A DNA stretch of 64,000 nt. Source: Eledone cirrhosa (lineage: Eukaryota). Each line of letters begins with the position of its first letter. The stretch's first letter is position 1. A model generated the notes under the pieces. That model was not told the DNA's origin and ran no database searches. It saw only the letters and a list, made by a program, of their open reading frames with translations. Where the stretch lies: the NCBI GenBank assembly GCA_964016885.1, contig OZ024740.1, forward strand, positions 288,300,001 to 288,364,000, read 5' to 3'. Shown here one piece after another: positions 1 through 58,050 of this stretch. A program made the position numbers and the translations under genes.

Positions 1-125
1 CAAGACTGGTGACCCTGTACTGCGCAAGCGAAACTTTAGAGTAACAAAGCTCATCAATAGCCATAATAAATGAATGTATATATATATATAGTTAAAAGAA
101 TAGAGGTGTAACACACAAGTTATTA

Positions 126-535
126 TATATTGGTAAACGGAATAGAAAATGCTGACAAATTGTTCACAGTTGAAAAATGGTTTAATTAGGAATAAAAGAG
201 TATTAGTGATTGTATGGGTTAGTATTCAGTTGTGGTTTTAAGTTTTTAAGTTTTTACCGGTTGCGCAATTCTAAATGCTTTTCAAAAATAATTTTGAGAT
301 AGAGTGTCCGTGCTGTTTGCTCTGATCTGTCAGAGCAAACAGATCAGAGCAAACAGCACGGACACTCTATCTCAAAATTATTTTTGAAAAGCATTTAGAA
401 ATGCGCAACCGGTAAAAACTTAAAAACTTAAAACCACAACTGAATACTAACCCATACAATCACTAATACTCTTTTATTCCTAATTAAACCATTTTTCAAC
501 TGTGAACAATTTGTCAGCATTTTCTATTCCGTTTA

Positions 536-543
<8 letters not shown>
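126..543. mobile_element. Fold-back PLE-end element (about 205-bp inverted arms, 8-nt spacer) between (TA)n tracts
   Basis: 126-330 is the near-perfect reverse complement of 339-543. The same sequence occurs once at ~44055-44250, downstream of a GIY-YIG ORF. Confidence 0.85.
381..417 (+). ncRNA. Variant minimal hammerhead ribozyme (core UUGAAAA / GCAA)
   Basis: ttt-TTGAAAA-gcatt taga aatgc-GCAA-ccgg-TA-aaa. Mirror copy at 252-288 (-). Confidence 0.5.
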
Positions 544-627
<84 letters not shown>

Positions 628-631
<4 letters not shown>

Positions 632-1214
632 AACAAACAAACCGAGCATTATAATAAATATTCGGTAAACCGATACGTGCATATATATATGTGTGTGCAT
701 GTATGTATATATATACATACTACTGTACGTCTGTATACATATATGTATGTACGTATACATACATACATATTTACATTTAAGTAAGTGCCGTACTAAGAGT
801 GAGAAATGAAATTTCGTTTCATTCTATTCCATTTATCTTTTTCGGTGTGCCCGGCCGACTGAACTCACTCGATATGCAAATTAGGCTGCTCAGTCGTTAA
901 TATGCATAAGGAAAGTATATACTTTCAGACGTTCAACCATCTGACAGGAAGGTATACGATGCTGACGATAGCTAATAAGCTTGAAACTAGTACATCGTTC
1001 CTGTGTCAGTGTTGAACAAAAAGGTGACGTGGTTGCCTAAACACTGTACGGCGTAATTCGGGCTGTTTGTTCGTTTACAAACAAACAAACCGAGCATTAT
1101 AATAAGTGTTCGGTAAACCGATACGTGCATATATATATATATGTGTGCATGTATGTATATATATACATACTACTGTACGTCTGTATACATATATGTATGT
1201 ACGTATACATACAT
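628..1214 (+). mobile_element. Retrozyme-like non-coding hammerhead unit, about 1.3 tandem copies of a 448-bp monomer, in (TA)n
   Basis: ccgagc anchor at 642 and 1090 gives a 448-bp period. One HHR per period and no ORF. Homologues at 24281-25145 and 35093-35420. Confidence 0.75.
957..997 (+). ncRNA. Type I minimal hammerhead ribozyme, canonical core
   Basis: cgatg-CTGACGA-tagct aata agctt-GAAA-ctag-TA-catcg. Stem I cgatg/catcg, palindromic stem III, GUA cleavage triplet. Confidence 0.9.
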
Positions 1215-1830
1215 AATTATATATATATATATATAAGCGACTAAGCTGGAGGTGGTAAACGTTTCACAACATGTGACGTCCCAGATGAGAAATTTACCTC
1301 CTTCGAATGGGATAAGAGCAATTCCATCGGGGCGCTTGCCGTCTTCGCACGTGTGTATGTGTGCGTGTGTGTGTGTGTGTGTGCGTGTGTGTGAAGGCTC
1401 TTGGCTTAGTGTTTAGGGTGTTCGGTTCACGATCGTAGTGATGTCATGCTGATGAACTGTCGTTATATTGATGTAATGTTACTGTTATGTTGATGTATAT
1501 TTATGTATGTAACGTTATGTTAAGTTATTGTATTATTTTTCACCATTATGTTGTTTGCCTTATTGTTGTTATCATGAGAGAAGGTTCTGTTGGTGTTATG
1601 CTTTCATATTATATCGATTTTGACGTTATGTGTATTGACTCTATTTTATTACCATGTTAATTGTTTCCCTCGTATATATTTATGGTAATTTGATGCATAG
1701 GTATTGATGTATCAATATGATACATAAGCATTGCAGCGTACAATTTGGAACAAACAAACAAACACACACACACACGCGCGCATATATATATATATAGCGC
1801 GGGTAAAATTCCCGAGATAAGACTAACTGT

Positions 1831-1903
1831 CGTCCTGTGTGGATTCGAACCACCAACCATTTGGTTAGCAGCCGAACGCGCTAACCGATTGCGCCACAGA
1901 GAC
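1831..1903 (-). pseudogene. tRNA-Asn pseudogene (anticodon reads GCT instead of GTT)
   Basis: Minus strand GTCTCTGTGGCGCAATCGGTTAGCGCGTTCGGCT-GCT-AACCAAATGGTTGGTGGTTCGAATCCACACAGGACG matches the metazoan tRNA-Asn body. Mismatches in the anticodon, T and acceptor stems. Confidence 0.8.
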
Positions 1904-24280: not shown

Positions 24281-24392
24281 AAACGATGAGTTGTAATAAA
24301 ATGAAAACGAAAATTCATTTCTCACTCGAACAAAGCGGGTGCTATAATAAGCGTCCGCTAAACTGATACGTACATATATGTATGTGTACCTG

Positions 24393-24482
<90 letters not shown>

Positions 24483-24530
24483 TGCTACTGTACGTCTGTA
24501 TACATATATGTATGTACGTATACATACATA

Positions 24531-24582
<52 letters not shown>

Positions 24583-25016
24583 TGCTACTGTACGTCTGTA
24601 TACATATATGTATGTACGTATACATACATACTTACATTTAAGTAAGTGCCGTACTAAGAGTGAGAAATGAAATTTCGTTTTCATTTTATTACAACTCATC
24701 GTTTTCGGTGCGCCTGACCGATTTAACTCACTCGATATGCAAATTAGGCTGCTCAGCCATTAATTTTCATAAGGAAAGTATATACTTTCGAACGTTCAAC
24801 CATCTGTCAGAAGGGTATACGGTGCTGATGATAGCTAACAAGCTTGAAACTAGTACATCGTTCCTGTGTCAGTGTTGAACAAAAAGGTGACGTGGTTGCC
24901 TTAACACCGTATGGCATAAATTCAGGCTGTTCAGTTTGTTTACAAACGAACAAAGCGGGCGCTATAATAAGCGTCCGCTAAACTGATACGTACATGTATG
25001 TATGTGTACCTGTATG

Positions 25017-25094
<78 letters not shown>

Positions 25095-25142
25095 TGCTAC
25101 TGTACGTCTGTATACATATATGTATGTACGTATACATACATA

Positions 25143-25145
<3 letters not shown>
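24281..25145 (+). mobile_element. Second copy of the retrozyme-like unit (partial tandem, with a 5' inverted piece)
   Basis: cgaacaaagcggg at 24327 and 24947. 24281-24327 is the reverse complement of ~24658-24704. (TA)n on both sides. Confidence 0.75.
24820..24860 (+). ncRNA. Type I minimal hammerhead ribozyme, canonical core
   Basis: cggtg-CTGATGA-tagct aaca agctt-GAAA-ctag-TA-catcg. Confidence 0.9.
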
Positions 25146-25199
<54 letters not shown>

Positions 25200-34867: not shown

Positions 34868-35092
34868 GAATAATCGAGTATCGAAAAATCGGCGCACGAG
34901 TTCACGATAAACAAAATTCGACATGAGTGGCAGAGGGCTCAATAATTCAGATAAATCAGAGCTATAACTATCGTTAAAATACCAACACACAAAGATTATG
35001 TCTAAAATCACCCATACGACCGAAAAATTACGATCAGGAAGATTCGGGTCACTCAGATAAAATATCAATAAATCAATAAATATATATATACG

Positions 35093-35420
35093 GAAAAAAT
35101 GAAACGAAATTTCATTTCTCACTCTTAGTACGGCTGTTACTTAAATATAAGTATGTATACGTACATACATATATGTATACAGACCTACAGTAGTATGTAT
35201 ATATATATATATACATACATGCACACATATATACATGTACGTATGGATTCACCGAACATTTATTATAATGCTCGGTGTGTTTGTAAACAAACATCCCGAA
35301 TTAAGCCGTACAGTGTCTAGCAACCATCGTTGCTCATTTGTTCAACACTGACAAAGGAACGCTGTACTAGTTTCAAGCTGTACGTCCGTATACATATATG
35401 TATGTACGTATACATACTTA
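35093..35420 (-). mobile_element. Third, circularly permuted copy of the retrozyme-like unit with an inverted 5' piece
   Basis: Minus strand starts at HHR stem II (agcttGAAActagTAcagcg, 35379) and reads through the monomer junction to gagtgagaaatgaaatttcg. 35378-35420 is an opposite-orientation piece of the same unit. Confidence 0.75.
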
Positions 35421-35516: not shown

Positions 35517-35588
35517 CATGTGTTGGTGTAATGGTAGCGCAGTGGTCTGGGTAACCAAATATCTGGGTTCGACTCCCATGTACGTCAA
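35517..35588 (+). pseudogene. tRNA-like sequence (pseudo-tRNA or SINE head)
   Basis: A box tggtgtaatggtagc, arm tggt-ctgggta-acca, B box ggttcgactcc. Acceptor stem degraded. Confidence 0.55.
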
Positions 35589-42544: not shown

Positions 42545-43549
42545 AAATCCTTCGAACACACGATATCATGAAGAGCAAAAGACAATCTAAATCAATGAAA
42601 AACATCCTAACACATGCCAAAGTACTGCCAACCACAACAACGAAACCCACAGTAAAAAAATGCGATAGACCCAACTGTGGTATATGCATCAACCTAATAG
42701 AGGGTTCGGAATTATATTTCAAACAAGGACAACGTTTTATAGTAAAACAGAATTTCACATGCGCATCAGAAAACCTAATATATGTATTAACTTGCTCAGG
42801 TTGTCGAGAACAATACATAGGCCAGACTAAAAACACCCTCCGCCAACGCATGACTGTCCGTAGATCCCAAATCAAAATACGGGAATACAGAAAAATAGCA
42901 CTGAGTGAACACATTGATACCTGTGCCGCCCAAAATCATCCCAACTTTAGAATTTTTCCCCTGTACAAATTTAAAGATAATGCCACCCACACCCAGCGCA
43001 TCAGCAAGGAATCTCACTTTATTAACAAATACGGACCCCCGTCTAAACACTTCTCCCTAAGACGAACCCACAACATACAAACGTTGACATACATACCTAC
43101 ATCAGCATACATCCTACATACATTTATACCCACATATAAACACAATGACATACGTAAACACACATGTTCTATGATGCAACACAAATATACACAAATTTGC
43201 ATACCTTTTGATGTTTATAGATATATACACGTGCCGACACGCACACATACACACGCGCATACATGTATTGCACATTGATGGGTGCATACATATTTGTACA
43301 CAAGTATCCCATACGGCAGGGCCCAATGGATTCCTCTTGCAGTACGTACAATCTGGACTCTCACACGCCTTGTTGTTATGACGATACTATACATGATTTC
43401 ACCTCTTTTGTTATTGATGTTATTGATGTTCTTTTGGGAGAATCGTTTTTGCAAATGACTGAAAATATCGAATAATGTACGCCATTTTTACCAGTACCAC
43501 AAAAATACTGGTCCATCCACACACACGCGCACACTAACATACAGACAGG

Positions 43550-45438: not shown

Positions 45439-45487
45439 ACACCTTTAATCGATTTTCGGACCTAATTGGATCCTCGTCAGAAGGCGT
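45439..45487 (-). ncRNA. Type I minimal hammerhead ribozyme, canonical core
   Basis: acgcctt-CTGACGA-ggatc caatta ggtcc-GAAA-atcgat-TA-aaggtgt. The element continues to (TA)n at ~45268. Confidence 0.92.
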
Positions 45488-49847: not shown

Positions 49848-52302
<2,455 letters not shown>

Positions 52303-54756: not shown

Positions 54757-57700
54757 ATGATATTTAATAAATGGAAACTATATTTATAAAACCATATTTA
54801 TTCTATTATATATATTTCAAGGGTACCAAAACTTTGGTACGCTTTCATTAGATAAAATAAAATACAAAGTTTGTTTTATAAATGTTGACATAACCAACAA
54901 AAGATACCTTAACGGTTCAAGTTTTTCTTGGATAGTGAAGGAAAGAAGGGAAAAGAGAAGAAAAGTCAGATATTTCAAATTATTAAGATGAGTATGCAAA
55001 TGAGTTTGAGGTATAGGGCTGAAAAACGTTATTTTAGACGCTATGCAGAATTTAAATAATTAGGATATATGTATGTATGAGTAGGAAGAAGAAGAAAAAA
55101 AGAAAGAATAGTTAATTTAAAAGGAATTAACAATTTGCGGGAATGGTGGAATATGATTCCAGAATTTAAATTTATTTAGCTATATTATGAGTTATAATAT
55201 TGTATATATAATCAATTAGATTATATGAAGAATTATGGTTGTAAGTAGATTTTATCTTATTACATTACAATAGGTTGTAAGTATATAAATATCTATATAG
55301 ATTAATAATTGTGCATTTATAAGTATTATAGAAGTAGAAAATATGAATTACGAAGGTTGTTGATTCTGCATTTTACATTAAAAAACACTTAGTTCAATTT
55401 GTAAGAGGAGAACAATTTGTAGATTCAAATATTTTGTTCCAGCATTGAAAATGTTTTCAGAATATTGTTAATTTAGCGAAGTTTATCATACATATTATAT
55501 TATAATATAATGTTTATGTTTGCACGATTGAAAAGGGAAAGATAACTCCAAATTTGATGAATGATTTACTCAGAAAATATATAGAGAAAATTATATATTA
55601 TTTTGTGTGAGATTAATTTCAATTATATATTATTTTAGTCGAAAGATGTGTGAAAGTTTGAAGATCAAAAGAAGAGGAAAAAAGTAATGTGCATTTCGAA
55701 GAACTATCGTAAAGAGGATAAACTTTCAGAATGTCAATTAAAGATTATCAATCTACATCTAAAAAATATATATTTAGAGGGGTATCATTAGGAAAATAAT
55801 GTCAAAAGGTAAAAATAGTAAAAAAAATATATTGAAAAATTAATGTCCAATGGTAAAAATAGTAGAAATATTAAAAATTAAGAAGGAAGATCATTTAAAA
55901 AATTTAGATTTAAATTTTTAAAGAAAATAGGATCATTTTGAAGGTGTATAAGATATAGTCAAGTGTAATGAATATCATAAATTAAAAATACTTCTGAAAG
56001 TGGAATTTTGGCGATGTCTGCAAGTAGAAAATAATTCTGTTTTAAGATTAATAGAATTTTGACAGTTAATTATATAAAAAGTTTCTTCGATACACAAGTT
56101 ACAGAATCTTGAGAAAGCCATATTTCGGTAGGCAGGTACTTTCGAAATCGTTCCCCAAGATATTGAATAGTCTATATTGTTGTCTTTTAAGTTCCAAATT
56201 AAATGAGAAAGTGAAGTGGAAGATTTTTTATCGGATCTATTAAATGTGTGTTTATGGTTATACCAGCGTTCTTTGAATTTTGTAGAAGTGGTACCAATAT
56301 AGTTAAATACTTTGTCTCTAGTTTTAACTGTGCATTTATAAATTACGTTTTTGTCTAAGCAATTATTTTGTAAAGGACAGTTTGATTTAATTCTACAGTT
56401 ACATTTTCTGGAGTTATTGTTGTTCGGAACGGTACCATTATTCTGAATATTGTTGTTAGAAATATTATTATTGCTATCTTGGTTAGTTTGGTTAGGGTTT
56501 AAATTTAAGTTTCTATTATTAATTCTATTTATATTTTGTGCTATGTTCATAGTAGTAGAGTAGGATAGTTTTATAGTGTGTCTGTTAAAAATAGAGTGGC
56601 ATCTATGGGCTTTAGGAAAACATTTATCTAGTGCTTTAAAAAATAGCATTGCTAAAGGTGTTTTAATGCTTAATGAGAATGGAGGAGAGTACCAAATAAT
56701 ATTTCTAGTTCCAGCTTTTGTTTGGTTTAATGTTTAAGTTAAATTGTTTATTATTATTATAATTAATTCTAGGATGATTTGTCATGTTATTGTTATCTAT
56801 GTATTTAATTTTATTCGAGTATCCTGCTCTATGTAAAGCTTCATTGTAATATTCTGCTTTATCATAAAAAATATTTTAATTAGCAGAGATGCGTGAAATC
56901 CGTTGTTGGACGCTATTGACAATGATGTTTTTAATATTTCTAGGATGATTAGAATTGAAACTTACGTAATTTAGATTTTCATTAATTTTATGGAATGAAT
57001 AGTAAAGACCTGTGCTAAGAAGTTAACGATTTTATAATTATTCTCGATTTCTAAATTAAGGTTGTAGTTATTGAAAAATTGTATTATGGATTTCCTTTTC
57101 CTATTAATTTCACTATTGCTATGGTTTTCGATTAAAAGTAACATATCGTCGCGATATAAACCTCCGGTCATCTCTGGAATTTTCCTATGCAGTACATTAT
57201 TAATAAATAATCCAACAAAGTCCGTTACTTGCGCCGAGTCAGATGATCCCATAGTGATATCAAAATTGATTTTTCTGTCGGCTCTTGTCCAGAGATGATT
57301 ATTAAATTCTATTAGTGTTTTACGTGCTGTTAGAATTATATTCATTTCTTCACTAGATAGGTCTGTATGTTTAAACGCGTAGATAAGTGCCTTATTAAGT
57401 AAACTAGGGGTAATAGAGGAGTAGTAATTTGCAATATCCATTTGAATTAATTTTTTGTTATGTTTTAATTTTATGTTATTAAACCAATCTATAACTTCAT
57501 TAGTACCGTTCCATAGTTTAAGGTGTGATTTTTCTTTAAGTAGTGGTATAATTCTATCTAGTATATGCTTGCTAATTATGCCTAAGTCAGATTTAGATGG
57601 TGCGATGAGTCTGACTGGTAGTTCAATTTCAAAATTTCTTTTGTGGTCCTTCAGGTTAATCTTCGGTTTTCTGGGTATAAAGGGTTCGGTCCTATTTTGG

Positions 57701-58050
57701 ATACCTAATTTATAGATAATTTCTGAAGCTTCCCTATTTAACGTTGTTTTGCAATCAGTTATAGTTTAAAGCGGTCAACATTAAAGGAGCTATTTATAAG
57801 CAAAAGGGATATTCAATTTGTTGGTAATTCAACAAATATAAATATTTATAATTGATTCAGAGCACTCGACAAGTTTTCTGGACTATAATATTCAATAATA
57901 TTTAATAAATGGAAAGTATATATATAAAACCATATTTATTCTATTATATATATTTCAAGGGTACCAAAACTTTGGTAAGCTTTCATCAGATAAAATACAA
58001 AGTTTGTTTTATAAATTTTGACATAACCAAGAAAAGATACCTTAACGGTT
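54757..58050 (-). mobile_element. Naiad-type Penelope-like retroelement, 5'-truncated, partial tandem pLTRs, disrupted RT + GIY-YIG ORF
   Basis: Hand translation from ~57745 gives INLKDHKRNF..RLIAPSKSDLGIISKHILD..VIDWFNNI..QMDIANYYSSI..FDITMGSSDSAQV..GLYRDD. ORF 56649-55975 has CNCR..CPL..CL..NVIYKC..YIGTT..FKERWYNH..CNLCIEE..CRH. Direct repeats at 54757-54916 and 57896-58050. Confidence 0.92.
57939..57995 (-). ncRNA. Type I hammerhead ribozyme in the Naiad pLTR
   Basis: ttttat-CTGATGA-aag..taccaaa gt tttggta..ctt-GAAA-tatata-TA-atagaa. The other pLTR (54801-54857) has CTAATGA. Confidence 0.88.

What the first reader, a model, noticed from the sequence alone, without database searches (positions are those of the whole stretch)
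1089..1114. Covarying 10-bp hairpin with invariant AUAAUA loop in the retrozyme-like unit
Copy 1 reads accgagcatt-ataata-agtgttcggt. Copy 2 (24954-24979) reads agcgggcgct-ataata-agcgtccgct. Three pairs change on both sides (C-G to G-C, and A-U to G-C twice) and one U-G becomes C-G, while all 10 pairs and the loop are kept. Both partial-tandem insertions start just upstream of this hairpin (641, 24334). This points to selection on an RNA structure outside the ribozyme, possibly an RT-recognition or tertiary-contact element (inference).
Basis: partly seen in the sequence, partly recalled or inferred. Interest (0 to 1): 0.75.

Follow-up and report, generated by a model that had tools for sequence, protein, structure and literature searches.

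The report
Covarying RNA arm of hammerhead retrozyme
The hairpin is real and keeps its base pairing through a step-by-step series of sequence changes across tens of thousands of copies of a small hammerhead-bearing jumping repeat, but its loop differs in sister families; it is likely one structural arm of a folded RNA platform beside the point where a Penelope-type enzyme would start copying.

Summary
The hairpin is confirmed. It lies in a ~430-520-nt non-coding unit with a type I hammerhead: an animal non-LTR retrozyme with Penelope-type insertion marks (27,727 pattern matches genome-wide, control 18). Covariation holds beyond two copies: 5 of 10 pairs change on both sides in 16 subfamily representatives, 96.8% of cells paired; a sixth in subfamily H. 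A tree from flanking sequence orders mismatch and G.U intermediates between the two window types. Corrections: the U.G at 1105 is a private mutation; mismatched or bulged stems also spread (44 of 100); the loop is constant only within this family (sister families: CACAGUAA, CACUGUAA, UUAU, UUUA); 19 of 68 predicted pairs of the whole unit covary; only 8 of 52 copies start just upstream, and copying likely starts at the other end. Best reading: a shape-constrained arm of a multiway junction beside the first fixed 3' end. No RNA data, no autonomous partner identified. The scan reported this retrozyme system before on other DNA of this genome. Side finding: strand-specific A-to-G in the TA arm, likely ADAR.

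The parts
1089..1114 (+). The hairpin ('arm 2'): 10-bp stem, AUAAUA loop; subfamily A with a private A>G at 1105
641..666 (+). Upstream duplicate of arm 2 in the same insertion; private G>A gives a C.A mismatch
630..1215 (+). Insertion 1: 1.3 units of the retrozyme (unit 641-1088, 448 nt) in (TA)n; 5'-truncated at ~630, ends at the first fixed 3' end
956..998 (+). Type I hammerhead: CUGACGA 962-968, stem II, GAAA 983-986, palindromic short stem III CUAG, predicted cleavage after 992; U.U at 10.1-11.1; stem I extends 931-955 with 999-1017
   Evidence: Rfam gathering search found no hammerhead
874..922 (+). Octamer ATGCAAAT (874-881) and TATA-like box (915-922); candidate internal promoter (inferred)
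   Evidence: shared by all related families, 2,433 matches vs 8 control for octamer plus non-CUAG hammerhead
1046..1052 (+). 5' strand GUACGGC of the long-range helix predicted to close the junction
   Evidence: columns 21-27 with 317-323, three pairs double-changed
787..793 (+). 3' strand GCCGUAC of the long-range helix (pairs with 1046-1052 in the monomer or circle)
1064..1087 (+). Arm 1, the UUUA-loop hairpin directly 5' of arm 2
1121..1213 (+). TA-rich self-complementary arm(s); length variable; A>G-biased in B-type copies
770..781 (+). Small CUUA-CAUU-UAAG hairpin (first C mutated in this copy); the first fixed 3' end of insertions falls in or just before its loop
782..834 (+). ~60-nt tail up to the second fixed 3' end
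24327..25147 (+). Insertion 2 (subfamily B3), sense arm; hairpins at 24334-24359 and 24954-24979; hammerhead core at 24825; ends at the first fixed end
24281..24328 (-). Inverted 5' arm of insertion 2, ending at the second fixed end (tail)
35086..35379 (-). Insertion 3 (subfamily C), sense arm starting inside the hammerhead, hairpin at 35276-35251, ending at the tail end; inverted piece at about 35378-35419

Best explanation
The hairpin is a base-paired arm, conserved by compensatory change, of a non-coding hammerhead-bearing repeat, and it likely serves as a shape element of a multiway RNA junction beside the site where a Penelope-like reverse transcriptase would start copying. Shown: the unit is non-coding, occurs as dispersed partial tandems in (TA)n with variable 5' ends, frequent 5' inversions and two fixed 3' ends about 60 nt apart; the stem changes fast while staying paired; one mismatch or bulge is tolerated. 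Predicted: a long-range helix closes a junction holding arm 1, this arm 2, a TA-rich arm and a small hairpin whose loop holds the first fixed end; four related families keep an 8-10-bp helix followed by AAA at this place with different loops (homology in families V and T is by position). Inferred: the unit is transcribed from an internal octamer/TATA promoter, cut (perhaps as a dimeric hammerhead) and perhaps circularised, bound by the enzyme of an autonomous Penelope-like element, and copied from the two fixed sites onto nicked (TA)n DNA. Arm 2 would help the junction fold and pack, and would keep its 5' strand from a competing pairing upstream; any reading of the loop would be family-specific.
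For: Pairing: 5 of 10 pairs, 96.8% paired, 0 of 500 shuffles for score; slid controls 26-42% paired; subfamily H, 670 matches, pair 4 flipped; sister family S compensations. Order of steps on a tree built without the hairpin. Eight of 20 stem bases differ between A and B3 against 11% for the unit (p about 0.0008). Hairpin probability 0.9-1.0 in seven of eight A/B/C-type folds with it intact or bulged. Junction. Ends: 33 of 48 3' ends at +225-232 or +286-293, 37 of 52 5' ends with an inversion; 26 of 34 arm pairs use different ends. PMC11167929 (main text read) shows a Penelope-like enzyme starting at two adjacent internal sites in a stem loop, needing RNA upstream of them, and cutting AT-rich DNA on both strands. 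Strand-specific A>G in the TA arm (14 vs 1 insertions) fits a folded + strand RNA intermediate.
Against: No function is shown, and no autonomous partner carrying this arm was found: none in 33 Neptune-like loci. Imperfect stems spread widely: 44 of the first 100 of 6,694 B-type matches carry a bulge or mismatch subfamily stem (counted by eye), 39 of 100 H matches a G.A, most S copies an A.A, so selection on each pair is weak. In two of three S monomers the base of the arm is predicted to pair with the upstream segment instead. Related sequences can beat the shuffle control without structure, and my representatives were chosen for differing stems, which inflates the statistics. The A-to-B ladder is one lineage; several tree nodes are weakly supported (13 of 57 starred). 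The hammerhead has a non-canonical U.U at 10.1-11.1 in these subfamilies; its activity is untested.
Confidence: 0.55

Rival explanations
1. The AUAAUA loop is a sequence-specific protein or tertiary-contact site, and the stem only presents it.
For: Loop unchanged across all A/B/C-type subfamilies while the stem turned over: 100 of 106 locus tallies read TATAATAA, 0 of 6 loop vs 14 of 20 stem columns variable; 97 of 100 with the loop free. Sister family S keeps a YAYWRUAA pattern. Loop predicted unpaired.
Against: Loop not more conserved than the rest of the unit (p 0.085-0.19; chance of no change on the A-B path 0.57); 3 of 8 positions differ in S, the same as the 38-40% family divergence; an S subfamily changed it again (32 of 100 matches); V has UUAU, T has UUUA/UUUG/AUUA; no complementary partner at a matching place; many loci were picked with loop-containing patterns.
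Confidence: 0.2
2. The arm has no part in enzyme docking; it is kept only because the small circular RNA must be compact and nuclease-resistant and must avoid misfolding.
For: 19 of 68 predicted pairs across the unit covary; mismatches tolerated; when the stem is weakened, as at 641-666, its 5' strand is predicted to pair with the upstream AAUUCGG segment; retrozyme circles are predicted to be highly self-paired (PMC7229834, passages).
Against: An arm of similar length followed by AAA is kept at the same junction position in four families, whereas arm 1 and the TA arm are lost in some; it lies in the stretch between cleavage site and first fixed end.
Confidence: 0.2
3. The double changes come from mutation, not selection: template switching in a quasi-palindrome or a DNA cruciform copies one strand from the other.
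For: Template switches are common in these insertions (inversions), and the stem changes faster than its flanks.
Against: Single-sided intermediates exist as dispersed subfamilies in tree order (G.G, A.C, U.G, one-base bulge); a G.U is kept in both window types, which strand copying would erase; the - strand folds worse.
Confidence: 0.05

Closest known systems
Metazoan non-LTR retrozymes (Cervera and de la Pena 2020, PMC7229834, passages and Discussion read; Li, Clavereau and Pollet 2026, 10.64898/2026.07.22.740005, parts 1-3 of 5 read)
   Same: Non-coding tandem units with a type I hammerhead, dispersed monomers to multimers, length inside the reported 51-972 bp range, proposed mobilisation by Penelope-like elements.
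   Different: Those texts, as read, describe no covarying junction outside the ribozyme, no two fixed 3' ends with 5' inversions, and no subfamily ladder. Expression, cleavage and circles are shown there, not here.
Penelope-like elements with GIY-YIG endonuclease (Craig et al. 2021, PMC8557442, passages read; PAc of Anolis, Frangieh et al. 2024, PMC11167929, main text read)
   Same: Partial tandems, 5' truncation, inverted 5' copy, optional tail, (TA)n or AT-rich targets, hammerhead upstream of two internal start sites.
   Different: No ORF; tail about 60 nt rather than 30-40; PAc starts in an AC-rich stem loop inside its ORF; no sequence link to an autonomous element found here.
Canonical metazoan type I hammerheads with short palindromic helix III (Cervera and de la Pena 2014, PMC4209133, passages read)
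   Same: 6-bp helix I with extension, 4-bp helix II, short palindromic helix III that needs a dimer.
   Different: A/B/C subfamilies have U.U instead of G10.1-C11.1 (S has G-C, one A-like subfamily C-G); below Rfam gathering thresholds.

Membership tests
Metazoan non-LTR retrozyme | Type I hammerhead motif in each unit | tested here: met
   Core, stems I-III found by script at 962 and 24825; stems I and II covary. Rfam gave no hit.
Metazoan non-LTR retrozyme | Short tandem units, dispersed as monomers to multimers | tested here: met
   Periods of about 420-520 nt in arrays; 27,727 matches.
Metazoan non-LTR retrozyme | No protein coding | tested here: met
   No stop-to-stop frame of 150 aa or more over the three insertions.
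Metazoan non-LTR retrozyme | No LTR, PBS or PPT architecture; mobilised in trans | tested here: met
   Variable 5' ends and partial tandems; the apparent terminal repeat is a partial tandem.
Metazoan non-LTR retrozyme | Transcribed, self-cleaving, forming circular RNA | not testable with these tools
   No RNA holder listed; needs bench work.
Non-autonomous derivative of a Penelope-like element | Insertion footprint: tail with two 3' ends, 5' inversions, microsatellite target | tested here: met
Non-autonomous derivative of a Penelope-like element | Sequence relation to the pLTR of an autonomous element | tested here: inconclusive
   No match to one abundant Neptune-like family (30 loci by blastn; 33 by hairpin scan); other Penelope-like families seen only as fragments.
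Autonomous Penelope-like element | RT plus GIY-YIG ORF | tested here: not met
   None in the unit.
Known Rfam RNA motif | Match of the hairpin to a curated family | tested here: not met
   Only two tRNA-like hits in the window at gathering threshold.

The most novel reading that the evidence does not exclude
The junction holding this arm is the docking platform that Penelope-like reverse transcriptases read by shape, shared by at least four retrozyme families of this genome; and the genome preserves a tree-ordered record of compensatory RNA evolution (mismatch, wobble and bulge intermediates each amplified to many copies), with some A-to-G steps supplied by ADAR editing of the RNA before it was copied back into DNA.
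Probability: 0.25. Interest if true: 0.7.

Novelty: new member of a known kind. Interest (0 to 1): 0.42.

Why it matters
How Penelope-like enzymes pick their RNA is open: the one in vitro study maps a needed RNA region and two start sites but no structure. Here natural variation outlines a compact candidate fold and supplies ready-made stem, loop, mismatch and bulge variants to test. The ladder of intermediates is also an unusually complete natural record of compensatory evolution in one helix. The hairpin on its own is one conserved helix among many in a known class of element.

Tried and rejected
Rfam gathering search: nothing for hairpin or hammerhead. No RNA holder listed. Contigs of two other coded organisms laid at low depth showed only A/C-type pieces; not used. 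Partner search: the Neptune-like 784-aa family shares target and two-end geometry but not the hairpin or hammerhead; Hydra-like and Poseidon-like fragments and clustered (TA)n-adjacent ends gave no match; a TTATAATAAAT string in another element's end lies in a stem, and one TATAATAA in the Neptune-like tail is not a loop; both set aside as chance. One search's loop test was circular (the pattern held the loop) and was replaced. One search's end pairing was faulty (a self-complementary anchor) and was replaced. misplace ends inside TA runs; 5' ends were re-read by eye. Uniform expectation for 5' ends is biased by how loci were chosen; the local test is 8 of 19 ends in 26 of 129 nt, p 0.024, a weak excess that I read as stalling or microhomology. 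A conserved two-state switch between arm 1 extension and arm 2 was considered: possible in A, C, S and V but nearly lost in B, so not claimed. A general A>G excess in the unit's core was not found (44 vs 39). Loop pairing with (TA)n target or kissing-loop dimerisation rejected by inspection (S loop is incompatible). Literature searches listed no paper on this hairpin; subscription papers and supplements were not seen, and supplements of PMC8557442 or PMC7229834 may list these families.

Full report
Observation. The two hairpins are exactly as described. Folded alone, each is a 10-bp stem with a 6-nt loop, far more stable than shuffles on the + strand (z -6.75, -6.46) and weaker on the - strand (z -1.06, -3.14). 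The window holds five copies in three insertions: 641-666 and 1089-1114, 24334-24359 and 24954-24979, and 35276-35251 on the - strand. The G at 1105 is private: other copies of this subfamily read AATGTTCGGT, so subfamily A and subfamily B3 differ by four double changes and share a G.U at pair 6. Random placement of 7-8 changes keeps all pairs in 0.2-0.4% of simulations.

The element. The unit (448 nt here; about 420-520 in arrays) has a type I hammerhead at 956-998 with a short palindromic stem III, no long frame, and an octamer plus TATA-like box upstream. G000 is a 3.0-Gb animal genome; a flank-and-loop pattern matches 27,727 places against 18 for the control. In 58 loci chosen by similarity, 33 of 48 distinct 3' ends mapped to +225-232 or +286-293 after the predicted cleavage site, 14 fell in the TA-rich block where mapping breaks, and one elsewhere; 37 of 52 5' ends carried an inverted arm. 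Of 39 two-armed insertions, 26 used different ends on the two arms, 8 the same, 5 were unassigned (lead from note e1-8668409). This is the Penelope footprint described in PMC8557442 (passages) and explained in PMC11167929 (main text): two internal start sites for reverse transcription, AT-rich targets, cuts on both strands. By eye, 8 of 52 left ends lie within 25 nt upstream of the hairpin; among the 19 ends in the first 129 nt this is a two-fold excess (p 0.024).

Covariation. Among the first 100 of 6,694 B-type matches (counted by eye) there were 15 B3, 15 B1, 23 G, 12 F, 6 E2 (one array), 5 E, 4 B0, 3 B2, 3 D, 3 with an extra G.U and 11 singletons. A maximum-likelihood tree of 60 copies, built from sequence upstream of the hairpin (two large types thinned, three S rows as outgroup; 13 of 57 inner branches strongly supported), places them in the order A, E (pair 2 broken, G.G), E2 (restored G-C), D and B0 (pair 8 via G.U to G-C; pair 5 broken, A.C), B1 (restored), B2 (pair 9 U.G), then B3 (C-G) and G (one base deleted, bulge) leading to F (second deletion on the other strand). 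Direction depends on the root and is not shown. On 16 representatives, 5 of 10 pairs change on both sides and 96.8% of 157 cells pair; slid controls give 26-42%. Subfamily H (670 matches; 61 of the first 100 fully paired, 39 with a G.A) flips pair 4. Caveats: representatives were picked for differing stems, relatedness inflates the shuffle control, and most steps lie on one lineage. Intermediates and the kept G.U argue against strand-copying artefacts. They also show that one defect is tolerated: 44 of those 100 B-type matches belong to bulged or mismatched subfamilies.

The loop. Within A/B/C it is constant: 97 of 100 C-type matches with the loop left free, 100 of 106 tallies anchored on flanks only. 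It is better kept than the stem (p 0.004-0.017) but not than the rest of the unit (p 0.085-0.19), and that sample is biased toward stem variants and intact loops. A sister family S (11,322 hammerhead matches; 38-40% diverged) has the arm at the same place with loop CACAGUAA and its own compensations; 32 of the first 100 of 9,626 matches, in seven insertions, read CACUGUAA. Family V (4,243 matches) has a stem close to subfamily D's with a predicted UUAU loop. Family T has an 8-bp arm with UUUA, UUUG, AUUA or UGUG loops at this position, and in most of 15 listed segments lacks arm 1 (two rows there are reverse readings). Homology for V and T is by position. No complementary partner for the loop occurs at a matching place in A, B, C and S.

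Context. Consensus folding of 25 representatives predicts 68 pairs, 19 with double changes, spread over hammerhead stems I and II, the stem I extension, a long-range helix and this arm. Single-sequence folds put arm 1, arm 2, the TA-rich arm and a small CUUA-CAUU-UAAG hairpin inside the long-range helix; the first fixed end falls at that small hairpin's loop, and V, S and T copies end at similar small hairpins. So arm 2 is about 110-200 nt from the first end in sequence but adjacent in the predicted fold. Earlier scan notes (e1-8836906, e1-8809842, e1-8806393) propose that hairpins at the ends are shared with autonomous elements; I did not confirm this, and found arm 2 in none of 33 Neptune-like loci.

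Mechanism. Best reading (0.55): arm 2 is a shape element of the junction beside the first start site of reverse transcription. Transcription, cleavage, circularisation, the partner enzyme and binding are all inferred from PMC7229834 (passages, Discussion), 10.64898/2026.07.22.740005 (parts 1-3 of 5), PMC4209133 (passages) and PMC11167929. Rivals: loop read by sequence (0.2), general compaction and anti-misfolding (0.2), mutational artefact (0.05).

Side finding. In the (TA)n tract of B-type copies, interior interruptions on the hammerhead strand are G in 14 insertions and C in 1, of 35 examined (37 vs 1 bases, p 0.001). They occur on both halves of the tract and are often identical among the units of one insertion. 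Target-site and random TA runs lean the other way (25 vs 70, 30 vs 74), so the controls are not symmetric, and some patterns are inherited within subfamilies. The core of the unit shows no such bias. ADAR editing of the folded RNA before reverse transcription is the likely cause (ADAR's preference for long duplexes is recalled); similar marks were noted by the scan in other genomes. Whether editing also supplied A-to-G steps in arm 2 cannot be told, since G.U-first paths are also what selection favours.

Verdict. A real, well-supported covarying helix in a new family of a known kind of element, whose system the scan has already reported elsewhere in this genome. The invariant-loop and insertion-start arguments do not hold up in general. 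Searches listed no paper describing this arm; the labels Neptune-like, Hydra-like and Poseidon-like rest on motifs in PMC8557442 passages and on recall, not on a tree.

Noticed in passing
B-type units, e.g. L036, L043, L060; window 24380-24480 and 25010-25090: Strand-specific A>G interruptions in the internal (TA)n arm, on both halves and often shared by units of one insertion (14 vs 1 insertions): likely ADAR editing fixed by reverse transcription.
   Followed up: partly
window 874-922; L214-L263: Octamer ATGCAAAT and a TATA-like box 70-100 nt upstream of the hammerhead core in at least five retrozyme families; family V has three octamer-like repeats. An snRNA-type promoter as in newt satellite 2 is recalled, not confirmed.
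   Followed up: partly
window 91-540: A ~450-bp palindrome is the 3' end of an abundant Neptune-like Penelope element with a 5' inversion, one arm with the 41-nt tail and one without.
   Followed up: yes
window 42547-43278; L161-L163: Young Neptune-like family with intact 784-codon RT-GIY-YIG frames, a long upstream coding-like stretch, tandem period 4,734 bp, and no canonical hammerhead seen by eye in its 3' region. Candidate partner by target and end geometry only; shares TCTATTC near its ends with subfamily A and family T.
   Followed up: partly
window 50855-51490 (-), 55975-57989 (-), 45480 (-): Fragments of two other Penelope-like elements (one with its own hammerhead at 57989) and a hammerhead of another octamer-bearing family at 45480.
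   Followed up: no
window 1058-1098 and equivalents in C, S, V: The 5' strand of the hairpin can pair instead with a segment upstream of arm 1; predicted to win when the stem is damaged (641-666 copy) and in two of three S monomers.
   Followed up: partly
L015 (G000:C18), L035 (G000:C4): Chimeric insertions: an inverted family V piece joined to an A unit, and a C-type piece joined to B units, suggesting template switches between co-expressed retrozyme RNAs.
   Followed up: no
G000:C1:5738327-5752443: Array of about 31 S-family units with an inverted last unit.
   Followed up: no
window 1831-1903 (-), 35517-35587 (+): tRNA-like matches, probably heads of SINEs; a 167-nt repeat with 13 copies in the window.
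   Followed up: no
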